From Candidatus Buchananbacteria bacterium (GTDB lineage: Bacteria > Patescibacteriota > Patescibacteriia > 2-01-FULL-39-33 > JBAYJR01): DNA of 64,000 nt. Location: NCBI GenBank assembly GCA_041665005.1, contig JBAYJR010000002.1, forward strand, positions 25,120 through 89,119, given 5' to 3'. The position numbers and the translations under genes were made by a program. This document shows, one piece after another, positions 9,041-61,100 of this stretch (position 1 is the first letter of the stretch; every line of letters starts with the position of its first letter). The notes under the pieces were generated by a model. It was not told the origin of the DNA and ran no database searches. It saw nothing but the letters and a program-made list of their open reading frames with translations.

Positions 9041-9072
9041 AATAATAGCTAAGTTATATCTAATTTATAACT

Positions 9073-9177: not shown

Positions 9178-9180
9178 AAT

Positions 9181-9213
9181 AAAAAAAGGCTTATTTAATT
9201 TAAGCCTTTTTTT
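9181..9213 (+). terminator. rho-independent terminator/attenuator after the peptide ORF
   Basis: aggctta-tttaatt-taagcct followed by T7. Confidence 0.7.
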
Positions 9214-9219
9214 GCTCCT

Positions 9220-10131: not shown

Positions 10132-10134
10132 TAT

Positions 10135-11457: not shown

Positions 11458-11461
11458 TTTT

Positions 11462-21061: not shown

Positions 21062-21220
21062 TTTGGGATAAAAATTTATAATTCAAACATGGCCGATACT
21101 GTTTATTTTTACGTAGACAGCCATGGGCGGATAAGTTATAATTAGGTTTTAATACTTTGTATATAAACGAGTTAGCTGAAATTAAGAATAGGCAAAAAAA
21201 GATAAAATAAATTCTTACAT

Positions 21221-43849: not shown

Positions 43850-44917
43850 ATGCCAAACATAGAAAATGATTGTTTAAAACTTGCTCAAATACTTTTGGAA
43901 CTAAAAAACCTTAAGTCAGAATTTACTGTGGCCTATCAAGAGGCCTTGGTTAGTCATGATTTGACTAGACCTAGAGAGTTAAAAAAACAGCTTAAGATTA
44001 AATTAGTAGAAATTAATAGCGAGGTTGCAAAATTAGAAGAAAAGACGGATCCTTATAATATAGGCTTAAGAAGGCGCTTGGCCAAAGAGAATGGTTTTAC
44101 ATATGTTAGTAATTTTTACAATGGTTCGGCGAGAGTTGCCAAAGGTCACAAGCGGTTTTGTATTGATCGTGCTGGTAAAGAGGTGGACCCGGAGAATACA
44201 AGCGGTAATGCGCATGATTATTTTGAGGATATCGCGGTAGTTAAAAAAGATGAAAAATATTTTTATGTTAATTCTTCTGGTCAGAAAATCAATGCTGAAA
44301 AATATCAGACGGCTTGTAATTTTTCCGAAGGTCTAGCTGCGGTTGTTAAAGACGAAAAACATTTTTTTATTAATCGAGCCGGCCGTAAAATTAGCTCAAA
44401 AATGTATGATTCTGCCCTTAGTTTTTCCGAAGGCTTGGCCGCTGTCGAAGAAGACAAAAAATGGTTTTATATTGATTATACTGGTAAAGATTTATTTTCT
44501 GAAAGATACGATGACGCCGGAATTTTTCATGAAGGCTTGGCCTGTGTTAAAAAAAATAATAAATATTTTTTTATAAATAAAGCTGGTCTATTGGCTATTC
44601 CAGAAAGATACGATAAGGCCTATAGTTTTTCGGCAGGAATCGCCTTAGTTAAAAAAGATGATAAGTGGTTTTATATTGATTGTGCTGGGCAGGAGATTGA
44701 TTCAAGGGGATATAAACCTGTAGAAAATTTTTGTCGGGGTTTTGCTTGGGTTAGCCAAAACGGAAAATATCTTGTTGTTAATACTGCTTTTGAGCAGATT
44801 AGTCCAACTAAATATGATTCTTTTAGAATTATAGAACAGGGGTTAGGCTGGGTTAAAAAAGATGGAAAATCTTTTTATGTTGATTATCGCGGTCAAAAAA
44901 TGTTTGACGCTGAGTAA
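43850..44917 (+). CDS. WG-repeat (KWG-type beta-propeller-like repeat) protein with a shared N-terminal helical module; tandem paralogue 1
   Basis: N-terminal MPNIENDCLKLAQILLELKNLKSEF module, then about 9 repeats of GLAxVKKDxKYFYIxxxGKxIxxEKYDxAxxFSEGLA. Confidence 0.7.
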   Translation: MPNIENDCLKLAQILLELKNLKSEFTVAYQEALVSHDLTRPRELKKQLKIKLVEINSEVAKLEEKTDPYNIGLRRRLAKENGFTYVSNFYNGSARVAKGHKRFCIDRAGKEVDPENTSGNAHDYFEDIAVVKKDEKYFYVNSSGQKINAEKYQTACNFSEGLAAVVKDEKHFFINRAGRKISSKMYDSALSFSEGLAAVEEDKKWFYIDYTGKDLFSERYDDAGIFHEGLACVKKNNKYFFINKAGLLAIPERYDKAYSFSAGIALVKKDDKWFYIDCAGQEIDSRGYKPVENFCRGFAWVSQNGKYLVVNTAFEQISPTKYDSFRIIEQGLGWVKKDGKSFYVDYRGQKMFDAE

Positions 44918-44926
44918 TTTTTATCT

Positions 44927-46000
44927 ATGCCAAATATAAAAACCAACTGCCAAGAACTTACTAACTTACTTTTGGCATTAAAAAACCTTAAGCCTGAGTT
45001 TGATTTGGCCTATCAAGAAGCCCTAGTTAGTCGTGACCTAACTAAGCTTAGAGAGTCCAAGAAGCAAATTGAAGGCAAAATAAAAGAACTAGAGGCCAAA
45101 CTTGACCCTTATAACATTGAACTACGAAAAAAACTAGCTGAAGAAAGCGGGTTTGACTTTGTTAATAATTTTCATGATGGTTGGGCTAAAGTTAGAAAGG
45201 ATGGAGAATATTTTTATGTTAATCAAGTCGGTAAAGCAATTAATTCCGAAAAATATGATGGTGCTGATGATTTTTCGGAAGGCCTAGCCTGGGTACATAT
45301 AAAGCACGAATATTTTTATATAGACCGTACCGGCGAAAGAACTAACTCGGAAACATATAGTAATGCTGGAACTTTTCATGAGGGCCTAGCTTGGATTGGA
45401 AAAAACGGAAAATACTTTTACATCAACCCAAAGGGTAAAATAGCGATTTCAGAAAAATATGACGACGCTGAAGATTTTTCTGAAGGTCTGGCCTCGGTTG
45501 CAAAAAATTTGCCAAAAAAGCTTGCCCATAGGCCTACCTATACCTATGTGTACATTAACCGCACTGGTAAAAGAATTAACTCGGAAACATATGATGCTGC
45601 TGGAATTTTTCATGAAGGCCTAGCCTGGGTTGAAAAAGACAGAGAATTTTTTTGTATCGACCACGCCGGTAAAACAATTATTTCGGAAAAATACGACGAA
45701 GTCGGGGATTTTTTTGACGGTTTGGCTCGAGTTAAAAAAGATGGAGAACACTTTTATATAGACCGTACCGGTAAAATCGTTATCTCAGCAAAATATGATG
45801 AAGCTGGAGATTTTTCGGAAGGCCTGGCTTTAGTTAAAAAAGATGGAGAATACTTTTATATAGACCGTGCCGGTAAAATGGCTATTTCGGAAAAATACGA
45901 CGACGCCGGAGATTTTTTTGAAGGCTTAGCTTTGGTTCAAAAAAACAACGAATACTACTACATTGATCATGCTGGTCGCAAAATATTTGACACGGAATAA
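44927..46000 (+). CDS. WG-repeat protein with shared N-terminal module; tandem paralogue 2
   Basis: Same architecture. Its 5' end is about 90% identical at the nucleotide level to paralogue 3. Confidence 0.7.
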   Translation: MPNIKTNCQELTNLLLALKNLKPEFDLAYQEALVSRDLTKLRESKKQIEGKIKELEAKLDPYNIELRKKLAEESGFDFVNNFHDGWAKVRKDGEYFYVNQVGKAINSEKYDGADDFSEGLAWVHIKHEYFYIDRTGERTNSETYSNAGTFHEGLAWIGKNGKYFYINPKGKIAISEKYDDAEDFSEGLASVAKNLPKKLAHRPTYTYVYINRTGKRINSETYDAAGIFHEGLAWVEKDREFFCIDHAGKTIISEKYDEVGDFFDGLARVKKDGEHFYIDRTGKIVISAKYDEAGDFSEGLALVKKDGEYFYIDRAGKMAISEKYDDAGDFFEGLALVQKNNEYYYIDHAGRKIFDTE

Positions 46001-46009
46001 TTTTTATTT

Positions 46010-47317
46010 ATGCTAAACACTGAACACAATTGCCAAGAACTTACCAATTTACTTCAGGAACTAAAAAACCTTAAGCCTGAGTTTGATTTGGCCTATCAAG
46101 AAGCCTTAATCAGCCGTGACCTGACTAAACTTAGAGAATTAAAGGTGGTGCTTAAAGATAAGGTAGAGAAGTTAGAGATGAAGATCGACCCTCACGATAT
46201 TGAATTGCGGAAAAAAATTGCTGAAAAAAATTTTTTTGATTTTGTTGATATTTTTTCCGAAGGCTTGGCCCTAGCAAGAAAGTCTAGAGTATATTCTGAT
46301 AGAGGATATTCTTATACTAACCGGGCTGGAAAAGTAATTAGTTCAGAGGTTTATAATGACGCTAGACGGTTTTCCGAAGGTTTGGCTGGGGTTACTACTA
46401 GTAATTATAGTAAAGGATGGTTTTTTATTGATCGTGCTGGTCAGGTAATTAATTCTGAAAAATATGATAATGTTCGTGATTTTTCCGAAGGCTTGGCTTG
46501 TGTTTGGAGAGGAAGTAAATGGTTTTATATTGACCAAAATGGCAATGATGTATTTAAAAAAAGATTTGATGCTGCTAATAGTTTTAGTAATGGATTGGCT
46601 TGTGTGGCTATAGATCATGATCATTTTTATATTGATCATACCGGTAAAAATGCTTTTTTAGAAAAGTATGACTTTGTGGATAATTTTCACGAAGATTTAG
46701 CTAGAGTGGGTAATTTTTCTGAGGGTGCTAATAATATGGACTATTTTTTTATTAATCGGGCTGGTCAAGCGATAAATCAAGAAAAGTATATAGAGGCTAA
46801 TAATTTTTTTGAAGGCCTGGCTGCGGTAAAAAAATATTATTCAGGTGGTTATAAGTATTCTTTCATTGATTCTACGGGAGTAGAAGTTATTCCGGCAAAG
46901 TATGACTATGCTACTAGATTTTTTGAAGGTTTGGCCCGAGTCAAAAGAAATGGCAAATTCTATTTTATTGATCACGCTGGCAAAGAGATAAATAGTGAAG
47001 GATATGACGGAGCCAGTGATTTTCATGAAGGCTTAGCTGCGGTTAAAACCAATAAAAAGGAAGAATGGTTCTACATTAACCAGATTGGCCAAAAAATTAG
47101 TCCGACTAGGTATTATTATGCCGGAAATTTTTCTGAAGGCGTAGCTTTGGTCAGAAAGGATAATAAAAACTTTTTGATTAATAAATTTGGTGAAGAAATT
47201 GGTTCGGATAAATATGATGGCGCCGAAAGTTATGGCGAGGGTTTGTATTTGGTAAGAAAAGGCTACGAGAACAAATTTTATATTGATCAGCGCGGTCGTA
47301 AAATATTTGACGCTTAA
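46010..47317 (+). CDS. WG-repeat protein with shared N-terminal module; tandem paralogue 3
   Basis: Same architecture, 435 aa. Confidence 0.7.
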   Translation: MLNTEHNCQELTNLLQELKNLKPEFDLAYQEALISRDLTKLRELKVVLKDKVEKLEMKIDPHDIELRKKIAEKNFFDFVDIFSEGLALARKSRVYSDRGYSYTNRAGKVISSEVYNDARRFSEGLAGVTTSNYSKGWFFIDRAGQVINSEKYDNVRDFSEGLACVWRGSKWFYIDQNGNDVFKKRFDAANSFSNGLACVAIDHDHFYIDHTGKNAFLEKYDFVDNFHEDLARVGNFSEGANNMDYFFINRAGQAINQEKYIEANNFFEGLAAVKKYYSGGYKYSFIDSTGVEVIPAKYDYATRFFEGLARVKRNGKFYFIDHAGKEINSEGYDGASDFHEGLAAVKTNKKEEWFYINQIGQKISPTRYYYAGNFSEGVALVRKDNKNFLINKFGEEIGSDKYDGAESYGEGLYLVRKGYENKFYIDQRGRKIFDA

Positions 47318-47329
47318 TAATTTTTATAT

Positions 47330-48400
47330 ATGCGAAACACTGAGCATAATTGCCAAGAACTTACTAATTTACTTCAGGAACTAAAAAACTTAAAGTCCGA
47401 ATTTGATGTGATTCATCAAGAGGCCTTGGTTAGCCGTGATTTGACTAAAATTAGAGAGCTTAAAAAACAAATTGAAAGTAAGGTGGTAGAATTGGAACCA
47501 AAAATAGATCCATATAATATAGAACTAAGAAAAGAAATAGCCAAGGAAAACGGTTTTGAATTTGTCGGTAATTTTCATGATGGCTGGGCGAGGGTTCAAA
47601 AGGATGGAGAATGGTTTTTTATTAGCCAAACCGGTAAAAAACTTAGCTGGGAAAAATATAAAGCTGTCTCTGATTTTCATGATGGTTTGGCTCGGATTAT
47701 TATAGATAACAAATATTTTTATCTTAATCAAATTGAAGAGGTGATAAATCAAAAAGGATATAGTGAGGCTAGTGATTTTTCGGAAGGTTTGGCTTGTGTT
47801 AAATATGGTTCATCTTATTATTTTATTGATCGTGAGGATAAAAGGGTTTTTGGAGAATATGTAGAGGCTAAGGGTTTTTCCGAAGGCTTGGCTTGGGTAA
47901 AAAATCAGCAGAAAAAATGGTATATTATTGATCGGACTGGTCAGGAAGTCGGCTCAGAAAAATATGATGGTGCTTTAAGTTTTTCTGAAGGAGTGGCCTG
48001 GGCCAATAAAGATGGACTTTGGTTTATTGTTGATCGTGATGGTAAAAAAATCAGTAACAAATGCTATGAGAGGGTTGAGAGTTTTCATGAAGGTTTGGCT
48101 CCAGTTACTTCTAGTTATGGTAAGGGTTGGTTTTTTATTGATCATTCTGAAAAAGAAGTAAGCCTAGCAAGATATGGTATGGCTGGTTATTTTTCGGAAG
48201 GCTTGGCTGCTGTTAAGCATGGTAGTAGTTATTTATATATTGATCATGCCGGCCAAGATGTATTTTTTGAAAGATACGACGTAAAGGCTGATTACTTTTA
48301 TGATGGTTTGGCTGAAGTTATAAAAGGCTCACTGAAATTTTATATTGATCATCGTGGTCAAGAAGTGTTTGGTAGCTGGCGCGTACAAGTTGATTGGTAA
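47330..48400 (+). CDS. WG-repeat protein with shared N-terminal module; tandem paralogue 4
   Basis: Same architecture, 356 aa. Confidence 0.7.
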   Translation: MRNTEHNCQELTNLLQELKNLKSEFDVIHQEALVSRDLTKIRELKKQIESKVVELEPKIDPYNIELRKEIAKENGFEFVGNFHDGWARVQKDGEWFFISQTGKKLSWEKYKAVSDFHDGLARIIIDNKYFYLNQIEEVINQKGYSEASDFSEGLACVKYGSSYYFIDREDKRVFGEYVEAKGFSEGLAWVKNQQKKWYIIDRTGQEVGSEKYDGALSFSEGVAWANKDGLWFIVDRDGKKISNKCYERVESFHEGLAPVTSSYGKGWFFIDHSEKEVSLARYGMAGYFSEGLAAVKHGSSYLYIDHAGQDVFFERYDVKADYFYDGLAEVIKGSLKFYIDHRGQEVFGSWRVQVDW

Positions 48401-50845: not shown

Positions 50846-50858
50846 AAGAACCACCGAA

Positions 50859-51290
50859 TTACTTCGGTGGTTTGGTTTTTGGTTTAACTTTTACGACTAG
50901 CGCCTTAGTGGCACTGCCGCTAAAAATCATTGCGTTTAGCGGGGTAAGAACATCAATGATGTCATAGTCCTGCTTTATCTTTGCTAAGCCTTCCTTTAGG
51001 GCCGGCAGATAAGAAATGCTACTACAATCAAGGCTGGTATACTCCGTTGCTTCTAGTAGCAACAGCTCGTTACTAATCGTAACGATGGAAAAACTTGATT
51101 TTGCATAATGGTTCCGTACGCCGTGGTTGGTATCAGCTGCCCTTGCCTTGGCAAAACTTTTTTCAAATGGTATATATAGAGATTTATATAAATAGTTATA
51201 TACACCGCCGAATACTAGCAGAATTATCACAATTATTACTACTAGTGCAATAGCTGCTAGAGTTTTAGAGTTTTTGGTTGATATTTGCAT
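50859..51290 (-). CDS. hypothetical membrane-anchored protein
   Basis: Minus-strand ORF with an N-terminal TM helix and RBS aaggagg. A terminator hairpin at 50845..50882 overlaps its 3' end. Confidence 0.45.
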   Translation of the reverse strand: MQISTKNSKTLAAIALVVIIVIILLVFGGVYNYLYKSLYIPFEKSFAKARAADTNHGVRNHYAKSSFSIVTISNELLLLEATEYTSLDCSSISYLPALKEGLAKIKQDYDIIDVLTPLNAMIFSGSATKALVVKVKPKTKPPK

Positions 51291-51395
51291 TAGCTAAACA
51301 CCTCCTTTTTGTTATTAAACTAGCAGTTTTTTGATTTGTTGTCAAGTGGGCTAAAAGTTGCTAAAATATAAACACTAATTGACTAGTTATCATTT

Positions 51396-52493
51396 ATGAA
51401 AATTGCTTTGGTTCATGATCATTTAGCCCAAGATGGGGGAGCGGAACGGGTTTTAAAAATTATTCAACAAACCTTTGTTGGCGCGCCTACTTATACTTTA
51501 TTTTATAATCCGCAAAAAGCGGACCCTTTTTTTGCTAAACAAGATATTCGCACTTCTTGGTTGCAACAAATGCCAGGGATTACCAAACATTATCAATGGT
51601 ATTTAACTTTAATGCCCGCCGCGGTGGAAAGTTTAAAATTTGAAGAATATGATGTGGTTTTATCCGACACTTCTTCTTTTGCAAAAGGGATAATTACCGG
51701 ACCACAAACTTTGCATCTTTGTTACTGTCATACCCCCACTAGGTATATTTGGAGTGATCGCCATACTTACGTTAAAGAATTGCATTATAACCGCTTAGTT
51801 AAATTGGCTATTCCGGCCGTGCTTAGTCGTTTGCGTCAATGGGATTTTATGGCCGCGCAACGGCCGGATAAATTTTTGGCCAATTCCGCCTTGGTACAAA
51901 AACGGATTGCTAAATATTATCATCGGCCGTCGCAAATTATTCATCCGCCGGTAGAAACTAATAATTTTAAAATTGCCCCCAAGGTAGGAAATTATTTTTT
52001 AATTGGTGGCCGCTTGGTGGCTTATAAGCGTTATGATTTAGCCGTTAAAGCTTTTTCGCGGATTGGTTTACCTTTAAAAATTTTTGGTGAAGGTCCGGAA
52101 CTAGCTAATCTACAAAAATTGGCCAAAAAGAATATAGAATTTTTAGGCAAGGTTGATTATCAACAGTTGACTAAATTATATAGCGAGTGTTTGGCTTTTT
52201 TGCATCCGCAGGAAGAAGATTTTGGTATTACGGCGGTGGAAGCGATGGCGGCCGGCCGGCCAGTAATTGCTTATGCGGCCGGTGGTGCTTTAGAAACGGT
52301 TATACCAGGTGTCAGCGGACAGTTTATTGATGAACAAAGCTGGGAGGCAATTATTGACGCAGTGATTAGATTTAAACCGGAAAATCTTAATCCGTTGGCC
52401 ATAAAAAATCAGGCGGAAAAATTTTCAGTCGCTAATTTTCAGCAACAACTTTTACAAGTAGTCAACGATGGCTGGCAAGAATTTCGTAATTAA
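51396..52493 (+). CDS. glycosyltransferase family 4
   Basis: EEDFGITAVEAMAAGRPVIAYAAGG is the GT4 EX7E motif. Confidence 0.88.
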   Translation: MKIALVHDHLAQDGGAERVLKIIQQTFVGAPTYTLFYNPQKADPFFAKQDIRTSWLQQMPGITKHYQWYLTLMPAAVESLKFEEYDVVLSDTSSFAKGIITGPQTLHLCYCHTPTRYIWSDRHTYVKELHYNRLVKLAIPAVLSRLRQWDFMAAQRPDKFLANSALVQKRIAKYYHRPSQIIHPPVETNNFKIAPKVGNYFLIGGRLVAYKRYDLAVKAFSRIGLPLKIFGEGPELANLQKLAKKNIEFLGKVDYQQLTKLYSECLAFLHPQEEDFGITAVEAMAAGRPVIAYAAGGALETVIPGVSGQFIDEQSWEAIIDAVIRFKPENLNPLAIKNQAEKFSVANFQQQLLQVVNDGWQEFRN

Positions 52494-52498
52494 TCTTT

Positions 52499-53671
52499 AT
52501 GAACATTGGCGTAGATATTAGATGTTTAATTCGTGGTCGCTACAATGGCGTGGCGGAATACACTTATCAGCTGTTAACGGCCTTGTTTGCGTTAGATCAA
52601 AAAAATCAGTATTGGTTGTTTTATAATTCTTACAGTCAGGTAAGTTTGCCGCCATTTAATCAGGCCAACGTTCATTACGTGGGGTTTCGTTACCCTAATC
52701 GGTTATTAATGTTGGGATTAAAACTTTTTAACTGGCCCAAATTAGATCAATTGATTGCCCAAAGATATTTGTTGTATCCGGAACCGATAAAATTTGATTT
52801 ATTTTTTTTACCTAATTTAGATTTTGTGTGTTTTAGTAAAAAGGTACCAGTAGTTTTAACGGCTCATGACTTATCTTACGAATTATTTCCTTACTTTTTT
52901 TCGCAAAAAATATTATGGTGGCATCGTTTAATTAATCCGCGTCGCTTAGCCCAAACGGCGCAAAAGATTTTAGCGGTTTCGGAAAATACTAAAAATGATT
53001 TGGTTAAAATATATCAAATTCCCGAAACCAAGGTGGTGAAGGTTTATTCCGGCTTGGATCAAGCGTTTAAAAAGATCACGGACCAGGAAGCTTTGGCTTT
53101 GGCACGAACTAATTGGCGATTGCCGGAAAAATTTATTTTAGGCTTGGGTACGATTGAGCCGCGGAAAAATTGGGAGAGTCTAATTTTGGCCTGGCAACGG
53201 GCTAAAATTAAATACAATATTCCGCACCAGCTGGTTTTGGTGGGTAATCAAGGCTGGCTACAAAGTTCGGTTTTTAATCTAATTAAACAATCGCGCTTGC
53301 GCCAAGAAATCAGATATTTAAATTCCGTTCAGCCCGAGGAACGCGTTTGGTTGTATAATTTAGCGGATTTGTTTGTTTATCCTTCCTGGTATGAAGGTTT
53401 TGGTTTTCCGCCGTTGGAAGCCATGGCTTGTGGCTTGCCGACAATTATCGCTAGTAATTCCGCCTTGTCCGAAGTGGCTAGTGCCGGGGCGTTATTGGTT
53501 AATCCCGATAATATTATTGAAATCAGTGAAGCGATGCAACAGGTTTTGAGTGATGAAAATTTAAAAAATGATTTAGCTAAACGGGGCCAGCAAGTTGCCG
53601 GTAATTATCCTTGGTCAAAAACCGCCCAAGAAGTTTTGGCCGTGTTTAATCAGCTAAAAATTCAGTCATAA
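52499..53671 (+). CDS. glycosyltransferase family 4
   Basis: YEGFGFPPLEAMACGLPTIAS. Confidence 0.88.
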   Translation: MNIGVDIRCLIRGRYNGVAEYTYQLLTALFALDQKNQYWLFYNSYSQVSLPPFNQANVHYVGFRYPNRLLMLGLKLFNWPKLDQLIAQRYLLYPEPIKFDLFFLPNLDFVCFSKKVPVVLTAHDLSYELFPYFFSQKILWWHRLINPRRLAQTAQKILAVSENTKNDLVKIYQIPETKVVKVYSGLDQAFKKITDQEALALARTNWRLPEKFILGLGTIEPRKNWESLILAWQRAKIKYNIPHQLVLVGNQGWLQSSVFNLIKQSRLRQEIRYLNSVQPEERVWLYNLADLFVYPSWYEGFGFPPLEAMACGLPTIIASNSALSEVASAGALLVNPDNIIEISEAMQQVLSDENLKNDLAKRGQQVAGNYPWSKTAQEVLAVFNQLKIQS

Positions 53672-53673
53672 TT

Positions 53674-54786
53674 ATGAAAGTCATAATTGATGCTCGTTTT
53701 TGGGGGCCAACACACACTGGCTTGGGAGTTTATACTAAGCAATTTGTTTTAGCCTTGGCCGAAATTGATCAAATTAATCAGTATGTTTTATTATTGCGTC
53801 AAGAAGTGCTGGCCGAAATTAATTTGCCGGCTAATTTTAAAAAAGTAGTTTGTAATTTAAAACCCTATTCTCTTAAAGAGCAATTAATTTTGCCGATTAT
53901 TTTGGGGCGATTAAAACCAGATTTGGTGCATTTTACTTCGATTAATGTGCCAATTTTTTATTTTGGTAAATATTTAGTTACGGTACATGATTTAATTAAA
54001 CATCAATTTACGGGCAAAGAAATGACTACTCGCCAACAGAGTATTTATTGGCTAAAGCAGTTTGGTTATTTAGCAGTTTTTAGAGTAATTTGTAAATTAG
54101 CTAAATTAATTTTAGTGCCATCGCAGTCAGTAAAGTCCGAGTTAGTTAAATTTTATCCGTTTACGGCTAATAAAATCTCGGTTACTTACGAGGCGGCCAC
54201 TTTGACCCAGTTTAAGTCAGTAGTTAGTAATTTAGCCCAATATAATTTACCGCCAAAGTTTTGTGTTTATACGGGGAACCCTTACCCGCATAAAAATTTA
54301 GCCAGATTAATTAAAGCTTGGCCGGCGGTTTATACTGCCACTAGTCAACAGTTAGTTTTGGTCTGCGGTCGTAGTGTTTTTAGTCAAAGGATAAATAAAT
54401 TAGTTAAACAACAAAACGCCGAACAGTTTGTTAAGTTTGTTGGTTATGTTAGGGATCAAGATTTATTAGCGGTTTATCGCCAGGCCTCCGCTTATATTTT
54501 TCCAACTTTGGCTGAGGGGTTTGGTTTGCCGGGATTAGACGCAATGTTGGTTGGTTTGCCAGTGGCTTGTTCGGATATTCCAGTTTTGCGCGAGGTTTAT
54601 GGCCCGGCCGCCGTTTATTTTAATCCGCGGGATACTGTGGATATGGCCGCTAAAATTACTGAATTAATCAGTAACCAAGTACTTAGAACCAAAGTAATTG
54701 ATTTTGGCTTTATACAAGCGGCCAGGTATAGCTGGTTAACTTGCGCTCAAGAGACACTTAGACTGTATCAGTTGCTTGCTAAATAA
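53674..54786 (+). CDS. glycosyltransferase family 4
   Basis: AEGFGLPGLDAMLVGLPVACSD. Confidence 0.88.
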   Translation: MKVIIDARFWGPTHTGLGVYTKQFVLALAEIDQINQYVLLLRQEVLAEINLPANFKKVVCNLKPYSLKEQLILPIILGRLKPDLVHFTSINVPIFYFGKYLVTVHDLIKHQFTGKEMTTRQQSIYWLKQFGYLAVFRVICKLAKLILVPSQSVKSELVKFYPFTANKISVTYEAATLTQFKSVVSNLAQYNLPPKFCVYTGNPYPHKNLARLIKAWPAVYTATSQQLVLVCGRSVFSQRINKLVKQQNAEQFVKFVGYVRDQDLLAVYRQASAYIFPTLAEGFGLPGLDAMLVGLPVACSDIPVLREVYGPAAVYFNPRDTVDMAAKITELISNQVLRTKVIDFGFIQAARYSWLTCAQETLRLYQLLAK

Positions 54787-54831
54787 TGAGTTATAATTTA
54801 AGATTTAGTAGTGCTAGAATAATAAACTTAT

Positions 54832-56016
54832 ATGCCCCAACTTTGCCCCGAACTCACAATTAAGTTAGTCTCCCTCAAACAACTCAAAGCAGAGTTTGAT
54901 TTGGAATTGACTAACTTGTCCCAAACAGGCAAGACAGGGGATTTAGTTTTGGTTAGAGAAGCTAAAGCCAACCTAAATCAAACCCTCCAAGAGTTCCAGA
55001 AACAAATCACTCAAATTGAATGGCAAGAGTTTTATGCTTATTCTTCTCGAGAATTGATTGCGGTAGAAAAGAAAATAAATTATCACGAAATTAAAACTCT
55101 CGAAGGACATACTAATACTGTACAGACCCTCCAAGTCCTCCCTGATAGTCGCATTGTTTCAGGTAGTCATGATAATACTATTAAGATTTGGCAACCAGAT
55201 AGTCAGGGTAATTATCAAAATACGCAAACCCTTAAAGAACATGTTTATCTTGTGGATACTCTCCAAGCCCTCCCTGATGGTCGTATTGTTTCAGGTAGTG
55301 CTGATGGTACTATTAAAATCTGGCAAACAGATAGCCAGGGCAACTATCAAAACACCCAAACACTCGAAGGACACACTAATTGGGTATCCGCCCTGCAAGT
55401 CCTACCTGATGGCCTTATTGTTTCGGGTAGTGGTGATAACACTATCAAAATTTGGAAACCAGACAGCCAAGGCAACTATAAAAACACCCAAACCCTCACC
55501 CAAATCCTCAGAGGAAAGATTGAATCTGTCCTCACCTTGAAGGTTCTACCCGATGGCCGGATTGTTTCGGGTTGTCATGATAGAACTATTAAAATTTGGC
55601 AACCAGACAGTCAAGGTAACTATAAAAATACGCAAACCCTCAAAGGACATGTCGATCAGGTGCGTACCCTCCAAGCCTTCTCTGATGGTCGCATTGTTTC
55701 AGGTAGTGCTGATGGTACTATTAAAATCTGGCAAACAGATAGCCAGGGCAACTATCAAAACACCCAAACACTCGAGGGGCATACTAATGCTGTATACACT
55801 CTGCAAGTCCTCACCGATGGTCGCATTGTTTCAGGTAGTGGTGATAAGACCATTAAAATTTGGGAACTAGACAGTCAAAACGACTATCAAAACACCCAAA
55901 CACTCGAGGGGCATACTAGATGGGTAGACACCCTCCAAGTCCTCCCTGATGGCCGCATTGTTTCGGGTAGTGGTGATCACACTATTAAAATATGGGATGG
56001 TGATAAAGTAGATTAA
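54832..56016 (+). CDS. WD40-repeat (7-bladed) protein with the shared MPQLCPEL N-terminal module (family B, member 1)
   Basis: Seven repeats of LxGHxxxVxxLQVLPDGRIVSGSxDxTIKIW. The repeats are nearly identical at the nucleotide level (55281..55380 compared with 55691..55790). Confidence 0.8.
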   Translation: MPQLCPELTIKLVSLKQLKAEFDLELTNLSQTGKTGDLVLVREAKANLNQTLQEFQKQITQIEWQEFYAYSSRELIAVEKKINYHEIKTLEGHTNTVQTLQVLPDSRIVSGSHDNTIKIWQPDSQGNYQNTQTLKEHVYLVDTLQALPDGRIVSGSADGTIKIWQTDSQGNYQNTQTLEGHTNWVSALQVLPDGLIVSGSGDNTIKIWKPDSQGNYKNTQTLTQILRGKIESVLTLKVLPDGRIVSGCHDRTIKIWQPDSQGNYKNTQTLKGHVDQVRTLQAFSDGRIVSGSADGTIKIWQTDSQGNYQNTQTLEGHTNAVYTLQVLTDGRIVSGSGDKTIKIWELDSQNDYQNTQTLEGHTRWVDTLQVLPDGRIVSGSGDHTIKIWDGDKVD

Positions 56017-56026
56017 ATAAATTTAT

Positions 56027-57085
56027 ATGCCCCAACTTTGCCCCGAACTCACTACCAAACTAGTCTCTCTCAAACAACTCAAACAAGAGTTCGATTTGGA
56101 ATTATCTGGCCTACCTCAAACAGGTAAGACAGGGGATTTAGCCTTGGTTAGAGAAGCTAAGAATAAATTAGTGCAGGGAATTAAAGAACTTCAAAAAAGT
56201 CTTTGGCCGTTAGAATATACGGAATTAACTTTTGAAAATTTTGAAGCCCAATATGAATTCCAGAAAAACCTTCTCCTAAACTCAGGCCTGCTAAAAACCC
56301 TCACCACTGGCGGATTAGGCATTGAAGCAATTGATAACAAAGAATATCCCATACCCACCTTAGAACAGATTGAAGAAATGATGCTAGAGAAACGAGAGTT
56401 TTTAAAAACTAAAATACCACAAGGCTTTGTTAAGTTAGTCCTTGTTCCACTCGGCCTACCTCTAGATTCCTTGATTAAGGCCTATGGTGACACTCTAAAC
56501 GAACACTATCGGCAAGGCAAGCTCTTGGACACCAAAAATAAACCCTTAGAGCTTGGGGAAGAGTCTATTGTTGGTTGCGCTAGGTATACAGAGGCCGAAG
56601 CCACAGGAGACTTAGTATATTTCCCCCAAGAATACTCTAAAACTACTCACCAAGGTAAAACCAAAAAACAACTTCTACTCATCCAAGCCTGGCAAGTCCT
56701 ACTAATTGAAGACTTGCCCGATCTTCCAGCCGAAGGTCGGAGTAAAATCAAGGCTAAACGCCAGCAACAAGAAGCTAACCAATCACCTAATTATTATCTT
56801 AAACAACTCCAAAACGACCCTCAGTATAAAGGTGAACAGGGTCTAACCCCAGAATCATGGTTAATTTATGCCTTAAGCCACTTAACCCAAACCAATCAAG
56901 TAATTGATAATTATGAGGGTTCGAGTAAGGGTTGTTATCTGCTTAGCGTTTGTTTCAAAAAATTTGGCTACGTGTCGTATGTCTATTTCTACCGTAAACT
57001 TGCGCAGGTTATTTTTGATCAACATGATCCGGCCGCCGGTTCTTATTCTAACGTTTCCAGCCGTTCGGCGGTGAGTATTCTTTAA
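56027..57085 (+). CDS. hypothetical protein with the shared MPQLCPEL N-terminal module and an unknown C-terminal domain (family B, member 2)
   Basis: Its first ~150 nt, including 12 nt upstream of the ATG, are about 85-90% identical to the WD40 gene's 5' end. Its C-terminal domain is homologous to the next gene. Confidence 0.7.
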   Translation: MPQLCPELTTKLVSLKQLKQEFDLELSGLPQTGKTGDLALVREAKNKLVQGIKELQKSLWPLEYTELTFENFEAQYEFQKNLLLNSGLLKTLTTGGLGIEAIDNKEYPIPTLEQIEEMMLEKREFLKTKIPQGFVKLVLVPLGLPLDSLIKAYGDTLNEHYRQGKLLDTKNKPLELGEESIVGCARYTEAEATGDLVYFPQEYSKTTHQGKTKKQLLLIQAWQVLLIEDLPDLPAEGRSKIKAKRQQQEANQSPNYYLKQLQNDPQYKGEQGLTPESWLIYALSHLTQTNQVIDNYEGSSKGCYLLSVCFKKFGYVSYVYFYRKLAQVIFDQHDPAAGSYSNVSSRSAVSIL

Positions 57086-57095
57086 ATAAATTTGT

Positions 57096-58157
57096 ATGCC
57101 CCAACTTTGCCCCGAACTTACTTCCAAACTAGCCTCCCTCAAACAGCTCAAACAACAGTTTGATTTGGAATTTACTAAAATTAAAAGTCTAGACTCTAAA
57201 AAATCCGATAATCTTATTTTCATCAGAGAAACTAAAATTAAACTAGAGCAAGGCTTAGCAGAATTTTCAGACCTTTTCTGGCCATTTGAAAATACTGAAT
57301 TAAATTGGGAAAATTTTGAAACCCAATATGAATCCCAGAAAAACCTTCTTATCAAGACCGGCTTATTAAAGAAAATTTCAACTGGCGAACTAGGTATTAA
57401 GGCAATTGATAAGAAGGAATATCCCATACTTACATTAGAACAGATTAAAGAAATGATGTTAGAAAAAAGAGATTTCTTTAAAACCAAAATTAATCAAGGT
57501 TTTGTTAAACTAGCTCTTGTTCCCTTTGGCTTACCAATTAGCTCTCTAATAAAGGCTTATGACAAGGCCCTAACCGAACATCATCAACAAGGCAAACTCT
57601 TGGACACCAAAAATCAACCCTTAATGCTTACGGAAGAGCCTATTAAAGATTGGGCTGGATTTGTAGAGGCCGAAACCACAGGAGATTTAGTATATTTTCC
57701 CCAAGCATACTCTAAAACTACTCACCAAGGTAAAACCAAACAAGAACTTTTGTCCAACCAAGCCTGGCAAGTCCTATTACTTGAAGACCTACCCGACCTT
57801 CCACCCGAAGGCCAAGGTAAAATCATCGATCATCGCCAGCAACCAGAAGCTAACCAATCACCCAATAACTATCTTAAACAGCTCCAAACCAACCCTCAGT
57901 ATAAAGGTGAACAAGGTTTAACCCCAGAATCTTGGATAACCTATGCCTTAGGCCACTTAGAACAAACCAATCAGGTGATTGATAATTATGAGGGTTCGGG
58001 TAAGGCTTGCTACTTGCTTAGTATTTTTTTTAAAGAAACTGGCGGCGTGCCGAACGCCTGTTTCAGCCGTAGCCTTGCAGAGGTCGGTTTGGTTCAGCGC
58101 GCTCCGGGCGATCCCAATCCCGACTTTGCCGGCCGTTTTGGGGTGAGTATTTCTTAA
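57096..58157 (+). CDS. hypothetical protein, family B member 3 (paralogue of 56027..57085)
   Basis: Collinear with member 2 across the domain body (DLVYFPQxYSKTTHQGKTK, NYEGSxKxCYLLS). Confidence 0.7.
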   Translation: MPQLCPELTSKLASLKQLKQQFDLEFTKIKSLDSKKSDNLIFIRETKIKLEQGLAEFSDLFWPFENTELNWENFETQYESQKNLLIKTGLLKKISTGELGIKAIDKKEYPILTLEQIKEMMLEKRDFFKTKINQGFVKLALVPFGLPISSLIKAYDKALTEHHQQGKLLDTKNQPLMLTEEPIKDWAGFVEAETTGDLVYFPQAYSKTTHQGKTKQELLSNQAWQVLLLEDLPDLPPEGQGKIIDHRQQPEANQSPNNYLKQLQTNPQYKGEQGLTPESWITYALGHLEQTNQVIDNYEGSGKACYLLSIFFKETGGVPNACFSRSLAEVGLVQRAPGDPNPDFAGRFGVSIS

Positions 58158-58352: not shown

Positions 58353-61100
58353 ATGGCTAGCAAAAAAATCAATCTTTCGGGGACTAAACCTTCTAAAAAA
58401 TTAAAGACAAAGAAGGTTATTTTGGCGACTAAAGGTAAAACAGCCGAAGTTAAACGTTTGGCTGATCCTAGTTTAGATTTATTGCATTTATTGGCAAAAA
58501 ACGGCATTGATTTGGGAATTACCCCGATTATTTCTAATAAAAATTTGGGGGGAACTCAGAAAAAGTTTGCTAAACCGCCTAAAATTAACAAAATTAAAGT
58601 TTTAGCGGCAACTCCTCGTCGGTCAGGTAAGGCGTTGCCTAAGGAAATAAAAATAACGTTTAAAGTTAAGCAAAAAAAGCCAATTCCTTCACCACACTTG
58701 TTAAATTTAAAAAAGTGGTTAGAGTTATCCACCGCTCAAAAAAGATCTTTATTAATTAGTAAAATAATTCCCGAAGTAAAATCGGAATTAAAAACCGGTA
58801 AATGGTTGAATTTTTGGTTTTTGGAAAATAGTCCGTTGTTGAATTGGACCAAGCAGGCTTTAAAAAGTTCTCCGGCCATAGAAGTTAATTCTTACTTAAC
58901 TAGCGCTAAGCCAAATTGGACTGAAAAAAATCTATGGATCGCTGAAAAACCCGCCAAGAATATTAAATCAGTGGCCGAAGAAAAATTAGTTACACCGTTA
59001 ATTATTGAAGATGAGGCTGGTGAAGTCGGTTGGCGACAAAATCAACTTTTAACCTGGCCAAATATTAAACAAAGAATTGCCTTTGGCGAATTGGCGCCAG
59101 TTTTTTATACGTTTAAAAGAGTCACGGTTTTTTTAATGGTAAGCTTTTTAATTTTAACGCCGCTGTTATTTTTTGGTTATTATCAAAACTTGCAAGTTAG
59201 TCGCGGTCAAATTTTAGGAGTTAGCACCAAAGGGGTGGAGCAATTAATGGCGGCCGGTCAAGCGGCCTCGCAGTTTAATTTACCGTTGGCGGATCAAAAA
59301 TTTAATGACGCTAAACAGGCTTTTGGCCAAGCGCAGGAGCAATTAAAGCAAACTTTAGGAATAGTGGGTGCTTTGGCGCAGTGGGCGCCGTTTGCCAATC
59401 AAATCCGTTCGGGGCAGGAAATTTTAGCCGCTGGGCAAAGCATTGCCGAAGCTGGCCGATATTTAAGTCAAGGTTTAAATCCCTTAACTACTACTGCTAG
59501 TAGTACTGCCAAATTGCCATTAACGGCTAAGTTGCGTTATTTGCAAAATAGCGCCCAGTTGGCTTTGGCAAAAATTAGCTTGGCGCAAAAGCAGGTGAAT
59601 GAAGTGTCTGTTAAAGATGTTCCGGCCGATAAACAAGTGGCTTGGCAACAATTGAATAACACTTTGCCAAGTTTGATTACTAATTTAAGAAGTTCCAGTC
59701 AGGCCTTAGAAATAATTTTAAATTTATTGGGCGAAACCGAACCCAGTCGGGTATTGGTGTTGTTACAAAATAATCATGAACTAAGAGCCACCGGAGGCTT
59801 TGTTGGTAGCTATGCTTTGGTAGATGTTAAGCAAGGACAAGTAGTTAAATTAGAAGTACCAGCCGGTGGTAGTTATGACTTAAAAGGTGGGGCGACTAAA
59901 AATATTACGGCGCCACGGGCCTTGCAAATGATCAATCCGGTTTGGAGTTTTTGGGATGCAAATTGGTGGCCGGATTTTCCAGCTTCGGCGCGAAATATTT
60001 TGTGGTTTTACCAAAAAAGTGGCGGACCTTCGGTTGATTATCTTTTGGCCTTTAATGTAGAAATGGTGGCGAAATTGCTAGGAATTATTGGGCCTATTCA
60101 AAGCGGTGACCAAGTAATCAATCAGGCTAATTTAGTGGAAGTTTTGCAAACCGCTTCGGAAGCGCAAAGATTTGTGGTGGGAGGTAAACCCAAACAAATG
60201 ATTTCTGATTTAACGCCTCAGTTGATTCAAAAAATTATTCAAAGTTCGCCCGAACAATTTTTAGAAATTATTGCTTTATTGCAACAGGCGCTCAGCCAAA
60301 AAGATTTAATGTTGTTTGCTAGTGATAATTTAGAGCAAGCCAAGATTATTGAAGCTAATTGGGGAGGAGAACTAAAATCAACGGCGGGAGATTATTTGGC
60401 GGTGATCAATACTAATATTGGTGGCGGTAAAACGGATAACGCTATTAAACAAGAAATTAGATTACAGTCTAAAATTTTGCCGGATAATTCGGTAATTAAT
60501 ACTTTGATTATTAAACGGCAACATCAGGGGTTACTTGGTGATCATTTTACTAAAGATCCTAATAATAGCTACCTTAGAATTTATGTGCCCGCTGGTGCTA
60601 AGTTATTATTAGCTCAGGGCTTTAACCCGCCAGCCGCCAGCGAGTATGAAGTTTCTACGGTTAAAACGCAGGATTCGGAATTTTTACAAGCCGAAAAAAA
60701 TGCCCAAATTGATCCAGCCTCTGGCACGGCGGTTTACCAAGAATTTGGTAAAACAGTTTTTGCTAATTGGCTAAGGTTAAAACCAGGCCAAAGCCAAGAG
60801 ATTATTTTGCAATATTTATTGCCGTTTAAGTTGCAAGCGCAAAAGCAAAGCAGTGGTTGGTTTAGTAGCTTAAAAGAGTTTTTTCAAACAGATTTTTCTT
60901 TAGTTAATTATTCTCTGTTAGTGCAACGTCAAGCGGGCAGTGGCCTAGATCAGTTTTTTTCGCGATTAGTTTTTCCTAGCCAATTAAAACCCTATTGGTA
61001 TTATCCCGACAGCTTAACGGTATTGGGTCAAGAAATTAATGGTCAAACAGTAATTAATCAAGATTTTTATAGCTCAATTAATTTTTTAGCGCCTAATTAA
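58353..61100 (+). CDS. large membrane-anchored protein, probably DUF4012 family (often linked to surface-polysaccharide loci)
   Basis: One TM helix around residue 260. The central segment LLQNNHELRATGGFVGSYALV resembles the conserved core of DUF4012. Adjacent to the glycosyltransferase cluster. Confidence 0.4.
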   Translation: MASKKINLSGTKPSKKLKTKKVILATKGKTAEVKRLADPSLDLLHLLAKNGIDLGITPIISNKNLGGTQKKFAKPPKINKIKVLAATPRRSGKALPKEIKITFKVKQKKPIPSPHLLNLKKWLELSTAQKRSLLISKIIPEVKSELKTGKWLNFWFLENSPLLNWTKQALKSSPAIEVNSYLTSAKPNWTEKNLWIAEKPAKNIKSVAEEKLVTPLIIEDEAGEVGWRQNQLLTWPNIKQRIAFGELAPVFYTFKRVTVFLMVSFLILTPLLFFGYYQNLQVSRGQILGVSTKGVEQLMAAGQAASQFNLPLADQKFNDAKQAFGQAQEQLKQTLGIVGALAQWAPFANQIRSGQEILAAGQSIAEAGRYLSQGLNPLTTTASSTAKLPLTAKLRYLQNSAQLALAKISLAQKQVNEVSVKDVPADKQVAWQQLNNTLPSLITNLRSSSQALEIILNLLGETEPSRVLVLLQNNHELRATGGFVGSYALVDVKQGQVVKLEVPAGGSYDLKGGATKNITAPRALQMINPVWSFWDANWWPDFPASARNILWFYQKSGGPSVDYLLAFNVEMVAKLLGIIGPIQSGDQVINQANLVEVLQTASEAQRFVVGGKPKQMISDLTPQLIQKIIQSSPEQFLEIIALLQQALSQKDLMLFASDNLEQAKIIEANWGGELKSTAGDYLAVINTNIGGGKTDNAIKQEIRLQSKILPDNSVINTLIIKRQHQGLLGDHFTKDPNNSYLRIYVPAGAKLLLAQGFNPPAASEYEVSTVKTQDSEFLQAEKNAQIDPASGTAVYQEFGKTVFANWLRLKPGQSQEIILQYLLPFKLQAQKQSSGWFSSLKEFFQTDFSLVNYSLLVQRQAGSGLDQFFSRLVFPSQLKPYWYYPDSLTVLGQEINGQTVINQDFYSSINFLAPN

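What the first reader, a model, noticed from the sequence alone, without database searches (positions are those of the whole stretch)
54820..57260. Near-identical 5' DNA cassettes (including upstream nucleotides) on three consecutive genes, and ~100-nt exact internal repeats in the WD40 gene
The segments starting at 54829, 56024 and 57093 share tatgccccaactttgccccgaact(c/t)ac followed by about 120 nt at roughly 85-90% identity. The C-terminal halves of the first gene versus the other two are unrelated. Within 54832..56016, blade-encoding units are repeated almost exactly, for example 55281..55380 compared with 55691..55790. This indicates recent duplication or ongoing gene conversion concentrated on the 5' module, and a recombination-prone repeat gene with possible blade-number variation. 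The region also uses C-rich codons (ctc, acc, ccc) that are uncommon elsewhere in the window.
Basis: seen in the sequence. Interest (0 to 1): 0.55.

Follow-up and report, generated by a model that had tools for sequence, protein, structure and literature searches.

The report
Shared handle on hypervariable binding proteins
The repeated 5' "cassette" encodes a roughly 60-residue N-terminal helical handle shared by a very large family of variable binding proteins in a tiny-genome Patescibacteria bacterium, and two of the three genes look like targets of a retroelement that rewrites their 3' ends.

Summary

**The three genes.** g1 (54832-56016), g2 (56027-57085) and g3 (57096-58157) are tandem + strand genes. 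All three start with the exact sequence ATGCCCCAACTTTGCCCCGAACT. It encodes an uncharacterised N-terminal module of about 60 aa: a Cys at residue 5 followed by a helical hairpin.

**What the module is attached to.**
- In g1 it precedes a highly repetitive 7-blade WD40 propeller.
- In g2 and g3 it precedes an unannotated domain with no Pfam or PDB match.
- Four WG-repeat genes upstream (43850-48400) carry a homologous module.
- The source MAG (Candidatus Buchananbacteria) has at least 35 such genes among roughly 1,000.

**New finding.** g2 and g3 belong to a family targeted by diversity-generating retroelements (DGRs). Homologues in two other Patescibacteria sit beside a reverse transcriptase, bAvd and a template repeat, and differ from that template only at its adenines. 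In seven paralogues from this organism, the matching 3' patch has no conserved adenine (0/22 versus 197/462 columns, p = 8e-6) and dN/dS near 1.

**Gene conversion.** Conversion focused on the 5' module is not supported in this window, because synonymous divergence there equals that of the gene body. Mosaic exchange between paralogues is real, however.

**Open points.** The module's role is inferred: I read it as an oligomerising or docking handle. No template repeat or reverse transcriptase was found for this genome.

The parts
54832..56016 (+). g1: N-terminal Cys plus helical-hairpin module (about 54832-55035), a linker, then a 7-blade highly repetitive WD40 propeller.
   Evidence: ORF of 394 aa. 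Pfam WD40 E = 5e-64 in 7 stretches. Module profile hit E = 1e-26 at the N-terminus. Mean blade identity 0.72, with variation concentrated at the positions after GH and flanking the D of GSxDxT.
55094..55995 (+). WD40 tandem repeat array with a 132-nt period (one 144-nt unit). It contains the exact 83-nt repeat 55285-55367 = 55693-55775.
   Evidence: TRF finds 6.7 copies at 72% matches. Exact-repeat scan and blade identity matrix.
56027..57085 (+). g2 (WCW02_01130): N-module (56027-56212) plus the class A domain, a member of a DGR-target family.
   Evidence: 100% identical to P0001. AF2 model pLDDT 93.8, with the hairpin at H6-27 and H35-59. No Pfam, NCBIfam, PADLOC or PHROG hit. No PDB or BFVD fold hit.
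56963..57061 (+). Candidate DGR variable region (VR) of g2, covering residues 313-345.
   Evidence: Among 7 paralogues, 0 of 22 invariant columns are A, against 197 of 462 elsewhere (p = 8e-6). Third-position A is 3% against 38%. GC is 0.56 against 0.40. dN/dS is 0.97 against 0.25. The region is homologous to proven VRs in L008 and L013.
57096..58157 (+). g3 (WCW02_01135): N-module (57096-57284, long-loop variant) plus the class A domain.
   Evidence: 66% identical to g2. Module profile hit E = 8e-27.
58038..58133 (+). Candidate DGR variable region of g3, covering residues 315-346.
   Evidence: Same tests as for g2. It is 78% identical over 152 nt to the VR of paralogue L001:11974, with differences mostly at codon positions 1 and 2.
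56017..56026 (+). 10-nt intergenic junction ATAAATTTAT. The same junction recurs at 57086-57095 (ATAAATTTGT) and in other arrays of the family.
   Evidence: Alignments. The same junction occurs at L001 9991-10000 and at the L004/L002 junction.
43850..48400 (+). Four tandem genes (43850-44917, 44927-46000, 46010-47317, 47330-48400) with a homologous but diverged N-module, each followed by WG beta repeats.
   Evidence: ORFs. Pfam WG_beta_rep E = 1e-39 to 1e-58. hhalign of the two module groups gives probability 95.5%, E = 1.4e-8. These are the only other module hits in the window.

Best explanation
**What the genes are.** The three genes belong to a lineage-expanded, modular superfamily of Patescibacteria proteins. 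The shared 5' cassette encodes an N-terminal module of about 60 residues: M-x(1-6)-C followed by a two-helix hairpin. I read this module as a common handle for oligomerisation or docking.

**What the handle carries.** It is fused to interchangeable ligand-binding domains that are each built to vary:
- a highly repetitive WD40 propeller with variable top-surface residues (g1);
- WG repeats (the four upstream genes);
- LRRs (in other genomes);
- the class A domain of g2 and g3.

**The class A 3' end.** The last ~35 codons of class A before a conserved R-x-A-V-S-I tail form a DGR variable region. In relatives, a reverse transcriptase with bAvd copies a template repeat into this region with adenine-specific errors. 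The ~22 class A paralogues of this genome carry the footprint of that process.

**Why the 5' DNA is so similar.** It reflects common descent, strong purifying selection on helix 1, and occasional recombination between paralogues. That recombination shuffles module variants and probably expands and contracts the arrays by unequal crossing-over at the module and the conserved 10-nt junction.

**Shown versus inferred.**
- Shown: the module and its homology across classes; the family census; the mosaicism; DGR targeting of homologues; the adenine footprint in g2/g3-type genes.
- Inferred: that a DGR is still active in this genome; that the class A domain is a C-type-lectin-like binder; that the handle works by helical-bundle association with itself or with a common partner.
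For: **Module**
- Alignments and the AF2 hairpin.
- hhalign between the two module groups: E = 1.4e-8.
- A profile search of 1.84 billion representative proteins gives 60 hits. Almost all match at residues 1-60, and they are fused to class A, class C, WD40, WG, LRR and other domains.

**Family size and arrangement**
- Census in the MAG.
- Arrays that mix classes: L001 has WD40-C-WD40'-A and A-C. L009 has A-WD40'-A'-C. L006 has LRR-A.
- Modules cluster by genome rather than by class.
- Class C is a short form of class A: hhalign probability 99.1%.

**DGR link**
- L008: 18 of 18 VR/TR mismatches fall at TR adenines, next to bAvd and RVT_1.
- L013 (Azambacteria): two targets bearing the module, plus TR, bAvd and RT. 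13 of 13 mismatches fall at TR adenines.
- This genome: 0 of 22 invariant VR columns are A, against 197 of 462 elsewhere (p = 8e-6). Codons follow an NNY pattern. dN/dS is 0.97 against 0.25 in the core.

**Recombination and localisation**
- Mosaicism and conversion tracts.
- Module-specific homogenisation in L013: pS 0.19 against 0.79.
- No TM segment or signal peptide.

**Literature**
- A Patescibacteria-restricted DGR clade and C-terminal C-Lec VRs (PMC8144416).
- Dispersed DGR-target paralogues with modular N-termini in cyanobacteria (PMC7517822).
Against: - No TR, RT or Avd was found in the window or in the five other loci of this MAG that I could fetch. Active diversification here is therefore unproven, and the VRs could be relics.
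- The seven VRs also differ at some non-variable positions. A single shared TR is unlikely.
- Class C 3' ends show no clear adenine footprint (p = 0.1).
- Nothing tests the proposed association function of the module. The helical-hairpin structural analogues (ING4, histidine-kinase DHp, designed helix-loop-helix dimers) scored E > 1.
- No enzymatic effector partner or core NTPase was seen.
Confidence: 0.6

Rival explanations
1. The N-module is an export or targeting signal rather than an oligomerisation adaptor. On this view, a shared helical-hairpin leader directs a repertoire of variable binders to a Patescibacteria-specific secretion or surface-display route, for host attachment. Known parallels are the WXG100/LXG/PE leaders of type VII secretion and the conserved N-terminal anchors of phage receptor-binding proteins.
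For: - DGR variable proteins of cells are usually surface-exposed binders (PMC8144416).
- The module always sits at the extreme N-terminus.
- It is uniform within a genome across unrelated C-terminal domains, as expected if all copies must fit one receptor.
- The Cys near the N-terminus is invariant.
- The proteins lack classical signal peptides, so any export would need a non-classical signal.
Against: - No secretion-system genes lie next to any array.
- No WXG, LXG or other Pfam match for the module, even at E = 10.
- No hydrophobic segment.
- A stand-alone 81-aa module protein exists.
- To my knowledge type VII secretion is not known in these bacteria.
Confidence: 0.25
2. The module is an effector-associated-domain-like homotypic adaptor of an intracellular conflict or immunity system. 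Repeat proteins (WD40, WG, LRR) and DGR-diversified proteins would sense invader molecules, then recruit each other or an unidentified effector through module-module binding.
For: The module meets the architectural criteria for effector-associated domains (EADs) in PMC7159879:
- it is small, alpha-helical and non-enzymatic;
- it occurs on adjacent genes with different partner domains;
- adjacent and same-lineage copies are the most alike.

An AAA_14/DUF4143 ATPase lies between the two targets in L013.
Against: - No core NTPase, peptidase or nuclease carries the module in any locus examined.
- No PADLOC hit for g2 or g3.
- No Pfam EAD hit.
- All identified partner domains are binders rather than effectors.
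Confidence: 0.2
3. One reading: the 5' identity reflects recent duplication or ongoing gene conversion focused on the 5' module, with no special function implied.
For: - Exact 23-30 nt runs that include upstream bases.
- Mosaic module variants.
- Significant conversion-like tracts.
- Clear 5'-specific homogenisation in the Azambacteria pair.
Against: - In this window and across 7 paralogues, synonymous divergence at the 5' end equals that of the gene body.
- The module is ancient. It is conserved at the protein level across Patescibacteria lineages and in the diverged WG-repeat group.
- Conversion tracts are not 5'-biased.
Confidence: 0.15
4. The hypervariable 3' patch of g2 and g3 is ordinary relaxed constraint or positive selection on a surface loop, unrelated to any retroelement.
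For: - No TR or RT was found for this genome.
- dN/dS is about 1 and not significantly above 1.
- The VRs differ at some non-variable sites.
Against: - Relaxed constraint does not explain the complete absence of conserved adenines (p = 8e-6, unique to this segment), the NNY codon pattern, the lowered pS or the GC jump from 0.40 to 0.56.
- The homologous segment is a proven VR in two relatives.
Confidence: 0.1

Closest known systems
DGR variable proteins with dispersed paralogues (Patescibacteria DGR clade 2, Roux et al. 2021, PMC8144416; cyanobacterial variable-protein paralogues, Vallota-Eastman et al. 2020, PMC7517822)
   Same: - The VR lies at the extreme 3' end, with adenine-specific variation.
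- Homologues have TR, bAvd and RT in cis.
- There are many intragenomic paralogues, some remote from any RT.
- N-terminal parts are modular.
   Different: - The target domain has no Pfam match (not FGE-sulfatase or DUF1566) and no Foldseek match.
- There is no TM segment or signal peptide, unlike most cellular targets.
- About 22 paralogues sit in a genome of roughly 1,000 genes.
- The N-terminal part is a short Cys plus hairpin handle that is also used by binders not targeted by a DGR.
- TR and RT have not been located for this genome.
Highly repetitive prokaryotic WD40 proteins (Hu et al. 2017, PMC5587647). Fungal NLR WD40 repeats with high internal conservation are a further parallel, from my own knowledge.
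   Same: - Internal blade identity is 0.72, above the 0.7 threshold.
- Some blades share near-exact DNA repeats.
- Variation is confined to a few loop positions.
- This implies recent repeat duplication or conversion.
   Different: - The propeller is attached to the Patescibacteria-specific N-module, with no kinase, NTPase or other signalling domain.
- It lies in arrays with DGR-type genes.
Effector-associated domains (EADs) of prokaryotic conflict systems (Kaur et al. 2020, PMC7159879)
   Same: - A small alpha-helical, non-enzymatic module.
- Found at protein termini on adjacent genes with different partner domains.
- Copies are most alike within a locus or lineage.
- Homotypic coupling is the proposed role.
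   Different: - No sequence match to any Pfam family.
- No NTPase or vWA-MoxR core, and no enzymatic effector.
- The host is an ultra-small episymbiont rather than a multicellular bacterium.
- Copy number is far higher.
N-terminal helical-hairpin leaders of multigene families (WXG100/LXG, PE/PPE), from my own knowledge
   Same: - A conserved N-terminal two-helix hairpin followed by a variable C-terminus.
- A large multigene family with recombination between members.
   Different: - No WXG or YxxxD/E motif, and no Pfam hit.
- No type VII secretion genes were seen.
- An invariant Cys sits near the N-terminus.

Membership tests
DGR target (variable protein) | VR at the 3' end of the gene, paired with a TR that differs only at TR adenines. 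| tested here: inconclusive
   No TR was found in the window or in L001, L002, L004, L005 or L009. It is met in homologues: L008 has 18 of 18 mismatches at TR adenines, and L013 has 13 of 13.
DGR target (variable protein) | Adenine-specific mutational footprint in the VR. | tested here: met
   0 of 22 invariant columns are A, against 197 of 462 elsewhere (p = 8e-6), and only in the last 33 codons before the tail. Codons follow an NNY pattern, with third-position A at 3%.
DGR target (variable protein) | Reverse transcriptase and Avd encoded in the same genome. | not testable with these tools
   Only about 110 kb of the MAG could be read, and no RT motif was found in it. All look-ups and scans were exhausted.
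DGR target (variable protein) | The VR is carried on a C-type lectin fold. | tested here: inconclusive
Highly repetitive WD40 (Hu et al. 2017) | [quoted passage not shown] | tested here: met
   Pfam WD40 E = 5e-64 in 7 stretches. Mean pairwise blade identity is 0.72. My register may differ from their method.
Effector-associated domains (Kaur et al. 2020) | A small, non-enzymatic, mostly alpha-helical terminal domain found on adjacent genes with different partner domains, with adjacent and same-lineage copies the most alike. | tested here: met
Effector-associated domains (Kaur et al. 2020) | One copy fused to a core conflict-system component (VMAP, iSTAND, GAP1, Ubl), with others fused to enzymatic effectors. 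| tested here: not met
   No such component was found in any of the 9 related loci or among the 60 representative architectures.
Effector-associated domains (Kaur et al. 2020) | Sequence membership in a described EAD family. | tested here: not met
   hmmscan of six N-modules against Pfam-A at E <= 10 gives only sub-threshold coiled-coil noise.
WXG100/LXG type VII secretion substrates | WXG or LXG domain signature, with type VII secretion genes present. | tested here: not met
   No Pfam hit. No FtsK/EssC-like gene appears in the loci listed. The whole genome was not examined.
WG-repeat proteins (PF14903) | Multiple WG_beta_rep units. This applies to the four upstream module genes. | tested here: met
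   E = 1e-39 to 2e-58, with 5-8 stretches each.

The most novel reading that the evidence does not exclude
An ultra-small episymbiotic bacterium devotes about 3-4% of its genes to a combinatorial recognition repertoire. One conserved N-terminal Cys-hairpin handle plugs interchangeable hypervariable binders into a common, still unknown machine. The binders are retroelement-diversified lectin-like domains, concerted-evolution WD40 propellers, WG repeats and LRRs. The machine could serve host attachment or an intracellular immune hub. Two independent diversification mechanisms (DGR mutagenesis and repeat recombination) would then feed a single output.
Probability: 0.25. Interest if true: 0.85.

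Novelty: new variant of a known kind. Interest (0 to 1): 0.62.

Why it matters
- **Investment by a reduced genome.** Patescibacteria have very small genomes, yet this one keeps at least 35 genes of a single unannotated family. That points to a function central to their host-dependent life.
- **A gap in annotation.** Class A genes are a DGR-target family that Pfam and Foldseek do not recognise, so DGR target catalogues and CPR annotations have a gap here.
- **A testable hypothesis.** The same handle sits on DGR-diversified and repeat-diversified binders. This suggests a common docking or oligomerisation platform for variable recognition modules in these organisms.
- **Practical caution.** Repeated 5' modules and near-identical WD40 blades are likely sites of assembly breaks and collapses in such MAGs. 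One WD40 member is cut off at a contig end.

Tried and rejected
**Annotation and fold searches that found nothing**
- Pfam, NCBIfam, PADLOC and PHROG gave nothing for g2, g3, the N-module, class C, or the other C-terminal classes that I provisionally call D and E.
- PDB sequence-profile searches gave only non-significant hits: the FadA hairpin (E = 0.68) and the DC-SIGNR neck (E = 4).
- Foldseek of both AF2 models against PDB and BFVD gave no hit below E = 0.6.

**Searches that under-performed**
- The N-module profile search in the search for homologous proteins returned only one protein. It evidently missed known members, so I did not use it for the census.
- The genome contigs pattern scan found nothing. 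The metagenome scan found only one contig of the MAG plus a chance hit, L003.
- Six of 12 encoding-contig look-ups were 'not on record'.
- The exact-sequence cluster look-up of g1 and the WG genes failed, so population variants and blade-number variation could not be assessed.

**Ideas considered and dropped**
- Promoter and terminator scans were no better than shuffled sequence. Rfam found nothing in the region.
- F-box-like adaptor: no Pfam hit, and the module is a two-helix hairpin rather than a three-helix F-box.
- Lipoprotein signal: there is no hydrophobic region or lipobox before the Cys.
- P-loop NTPase reading of NHQGKTK...LLIED: the spacing is wrong and there is no fold hit.
- Amyloid signalling motif: the module is a long amphipathic helix pair.
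- Antigenic-variation silent cassettes: every copy is a complete ORF with its own start codon.
- P0017 as an allele that would reveal VR turnover: it is simply another paralogue.


Full report
**1. Observation**

The region holds three tandem + strand ORFs: g1 54832-56016 (394 aa), g2 56027-57085 (352 aa) and g3 57096-58157 (353 aa). They are separated by 10-nt spacers.

The 23-mer ATGCCCCAACTTTGCCCCGAACT is exact at all three starts and occurs nowhere else in the window, with 0 expected by chance. Exact identity extends upstream for 30 nt in g1/g2 and 24 nt in g2/g3, across a shared AT-rich leader.

- g1 versus g2 is 86% identical over 145 nt, but g1 versus g3 is only 62%.
- All three are 83-90% identical only over the first ~78 nt.
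- The WD40 gene is a 132-nt-period array. Its near-exact internal repeat is real, but the coordinates given are 2 nt out of register. The true repeat is 55285-55367 = 55693-55775, an exact 83-nt run.
- The codon claim holds. Third-position C is 0.23-0.24 against 0.08-0.20 in the other 34 long ORFs. These are the only genes in the window with negative coding-strand GC skew.

**2. What the shared cassette encodes**

The cassette encodes an N-terminal module of about 60 residues: M-P-Q-L-C, then two helices (residues 6-27 and 35-59 in a model with pLDDT 93.8).

The window comes from a Candidatus Buchananbacteria MAG, and g2 is WCW02_01130. That MAG carries:
- about 22 paralogues of the g2/g3 type, which I call class A;
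- six of a shorter type, class C, which hhalign shows is a trimmed version of class A (probability 99.1%);
- at least five WD40-type genes;
- one stand-alone 81-aa module protein.

Inside the window, four further tandem genes (43850-48400) carry a diverged but homologous module (hhalign E = 1.4e-8) followed by WG repeats. A local profile search finds exactly these seven module genes in the window.

That makes at least 35 genes. Locus tags run to about 05020 in steps of 5, so the MAG has roughly 1,000 genes.

The genes lie singly or in mixed arrays between housekeeping genes, always co-oriented with their neighbours:
- WD40-A-A in the window;
- WD40-C-WD40'-A and A-C in L001;
- A-WD40'-A'-C in L009;
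- A-A in L004/L002.

**3. Wider distribution**

A profile of the seven window modules, searched against 1.84 billion representative proteins, finds 60 proteins. The match is almost always at residues 1-60. The C-terminal parts are class A, class C, WD40, WG repeats, RNI-like LRRs, other repeats, and at least three further unannotated types.

Named sources are Patescibacteria. GTDB hits are Falkowbacteria, Azambacteria and Magasanikbacteria.

Modules resemble each other by genome, not by C-terminal class. One example is the LRR and class A neighbours in L006 compared with the Buchananbacteria set.

Neither the module nor class A has any Pfam, NCBIfam, PADLOC or PHROG match or any Foldseek match in PDB or BFVD.

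None of the seven window proteins has a TM segment or signal peptide.

**4. The 3' ends of g2 and g3 look like DGR variable regions**

Among seven class A genes with DNA in hand, the last ~35 codons before the conserved R-F-A-V-S-I tail are hypervariable. dN/dS there is 0.97 (bootstrap 0.58-1.55), against 0.25 in the core.

*Proven targets in relatives.*
- A distant class A homologue, P0081 in L008, sits next to bAvd and an RVT_1 reverse transcriptase. Its 3' end (4561-4664) is repeated 452 nt downstream with 18 mismatches, all at adenines of the downstream copy. This is the diagnostic DGR VR/TR relationship.
- An Azambacteria locus, L013, holds two class A genes that carry the Cys-hairpin module, then a TR, bAvd and an RT. 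13 of 13 VR2/TR mismatches are at TR adenines.

*Footprint in this genome.* In the Buchananbacteria paralogues, the homologous segment is g2 56963-57061 and g3 58038-58133. Its features are:
- codon positions 1 and 2 vary, while position 3 stays C or T;
- GC rises from 0.40 to 0.56;
- third-position A falls from 38% to 3%;
- none of the 22 invariant columns is A, against 197 of 462 elsewhere (Fisher p = 8e-6), and only this segment of the gene shows the effect.

*Caveats.*
- No TR, RT or Avd occurs in the window or in the other loci of this MAG that I could read.
- The VRs also differ at some non-variable sites.
- Current activity, the number of TRs and the location of the element are therefore unknown.
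- Class C ends show no clear footprint.

*Literature context.* A Patescibacteria-restricted DGR clade, strictly C-terminal C-Lec VRs and mostly membrane-anchored cellular targets are described in PMC8144416. Dispersed target paralogues with modular N-termini and relic VRs are described for cyanobacteria in PMC7517822.

**5. Is the 5' identity due to gene conversion?**

*Evidence for recombination.* Module loop/helix-2 variants come in three haplotypes that cross-cut the C-terminal classes. g1's module is a patchwork of segments, each closest to a different paralogue. A GENECONV-like permutation test gives p <= 0.003 for 4 of 21 class A pairs.

*Evidence against a 5' focus in this window.*
- The conversion tracts lie along the whole gene.
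- Synonymous divergence (pS) at the 5' end is 0.39, against 0.44 in the core. Non-synonymous divergence there is just 0.12.
- Within the window, pS is 0.40-0.46 for the g1-g2 module. For g2-g3 it is 0.23 in helix 1 and 0.63 in helix 2, and 0.44 in the gene body.

So the 5' similarity here is mainly purifying selection on an old module. The exact first 23 nt in five genes hints at either a short conversion tract or selection on the initiation region, but the evidence is weak.

In the Azambacteria pair, the module is clearly homogenised: pS is 0.19 in the module, 0.79 in the body and 0.12 in the VR.

The conserved module plus the identical 10-nt junction are plausible substrates for unequal crossing-over that builds the arrays. 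This is an inference.

**6. The WD40 gene**

Mean blade identity is 0.72, which meets the 'highly repetitive' threshold of PMC5587647. Variation is concentrated at positions after GH and around the D of GSxDxT. From general WD40 knowledge, these line the top face of the propeller.

Blade-number variation could not be tested. Short homologues with 2 or 4 blades exist, but they may be assembly collapses. One MAG member is truncated at a contig end.

**7. Mechanism**

*Best-supported reading.* The family is a set of variable binders sharing a common N-terminal handle. Two independent diversification routes feed it: DGR mutagenesis for class A, and repeat recombination for WD40.

*Role of the handle (inferred).* Three observations fit homo- or hetero-oligomerisation into helical bundles, or docking to one common partner:
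- the handle is a two-helix hairpin;
- it has invariant L/F positions and invariant K16, K19, R42, E43 and K45 across both module groups;
- its sequence is uniform within a genome.

It satisfies the architectural criteria for effector-associated domains. However, it lacks the core NTPase and the effector context, and it has no sequence match. A targeting or secretion role is the main rival.

**8. Unexplained**

Class A and the highly repetitive WD40 genes have the codon and skew profile of genes on the opposite strand (third-position C 0.21-0.27, third-position G 0.09-0.14, negative skew). Yet they lie co-oriented with neighbours that show the opposite profile. Class C, the diverged WD40-like gene and most WG genes are normal. 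Family genes in another genome, L006, are also enriched in third-position C. I did not find an explanation.

**9. Verdict**

- The more important finding is that g2 and g3 are members of an unannotated DGR-target family, and that the shared cassette is a superfamily-wide handle on hypervariable binders.
- I rate it a new variant of known kinds: DGR variable proteins, highly repetitive WD40 proteins and adaptor-type modules.
- Interest is 0.62.

Noticed in passing
window 43850-48400: Four tandem WG-repeat genes (355, 357, 435 and 356 aa) share a diverged version of the same N-terminal Cys plus hairpin module. The second gene (44927-46000) has intermediate composition: third-position C 0.20 and third-position G 0.11.
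   Followed up: partly
window 54832-58157; L001 1950-3002, 8824-9990, 11974-13032; L002 218-1312; L005 10001-11074: Class A and the highly repetitive WD40 genes have the codon and GC-skew profile of opposite-strand genes (such as topA, dprA, pth, der and lytR in L001), although they are co-oriented with normal-profile neighbours. Class C genes in the same arrays are normal.
   Followed up: partly
window 48891-49345 (- strand): Bacterial RNase P RNA class A (168 bits), spanning 455 nt against a 367-position model. It is the only feature found on the minus strand in a window where all 37 long ORFs are on the + strand.
   Followed up: no
window 6662-6735: tRNA-Gln (CTG), the only tRNA in the window.
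   Followed up: no
window 9000-13000 and 21000-22000: Low-GC stretches (0.27-0.31, against about 0.38 elsewhere) that may be islands of different origin.
   Followed up: no
window 49442-54786 and 58353-61100: The three genes sit between a polysaccharide-type cluster and a 915-aa DUF4012 protein. In the cluster, Pfam confirms only the GT4 glycosyltransferase at 53674-54786; the sugar-transferase-like ORF and the two further glycosyltransferase-like ORFs are my reading of the sequences. Other family members sit among unrelated housekeeping genes, so this context is probably incidental.
   Followed up: partly
L008 75-473 and 5124-5468; L013 7569-8003: In both Patescibacteria DGR loci, bAvd is encoded on the strand opposite to the target and the RT. 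L008 carries a second bAvd/23S_rRNA_IVP gene, and a phage-type integrase lies about 4 kb away.
   Followed up: no
L013 4711-5985: An AAA_14/DUF4143 ATPase gene lies between the two DGR targets of the Azambacteria locus.
   Followed up: no
L006 10827-11592: The class A gene next to the LRR module gene appears truncated or frameshifted: a 210-aa ORF, with the conserved tail in another frame. It may be a pseudogene or an assembly error.
   Followed up: no
window 54833-54854 (also 56028-56049 and 57097-57119): The conserved 23-mer is itself an imperfect 11-nt tandem duplication (TGCCCCAACTT / TGCCCCGAACT). This is specific to this lineage's version of the module.
   Followed up: no
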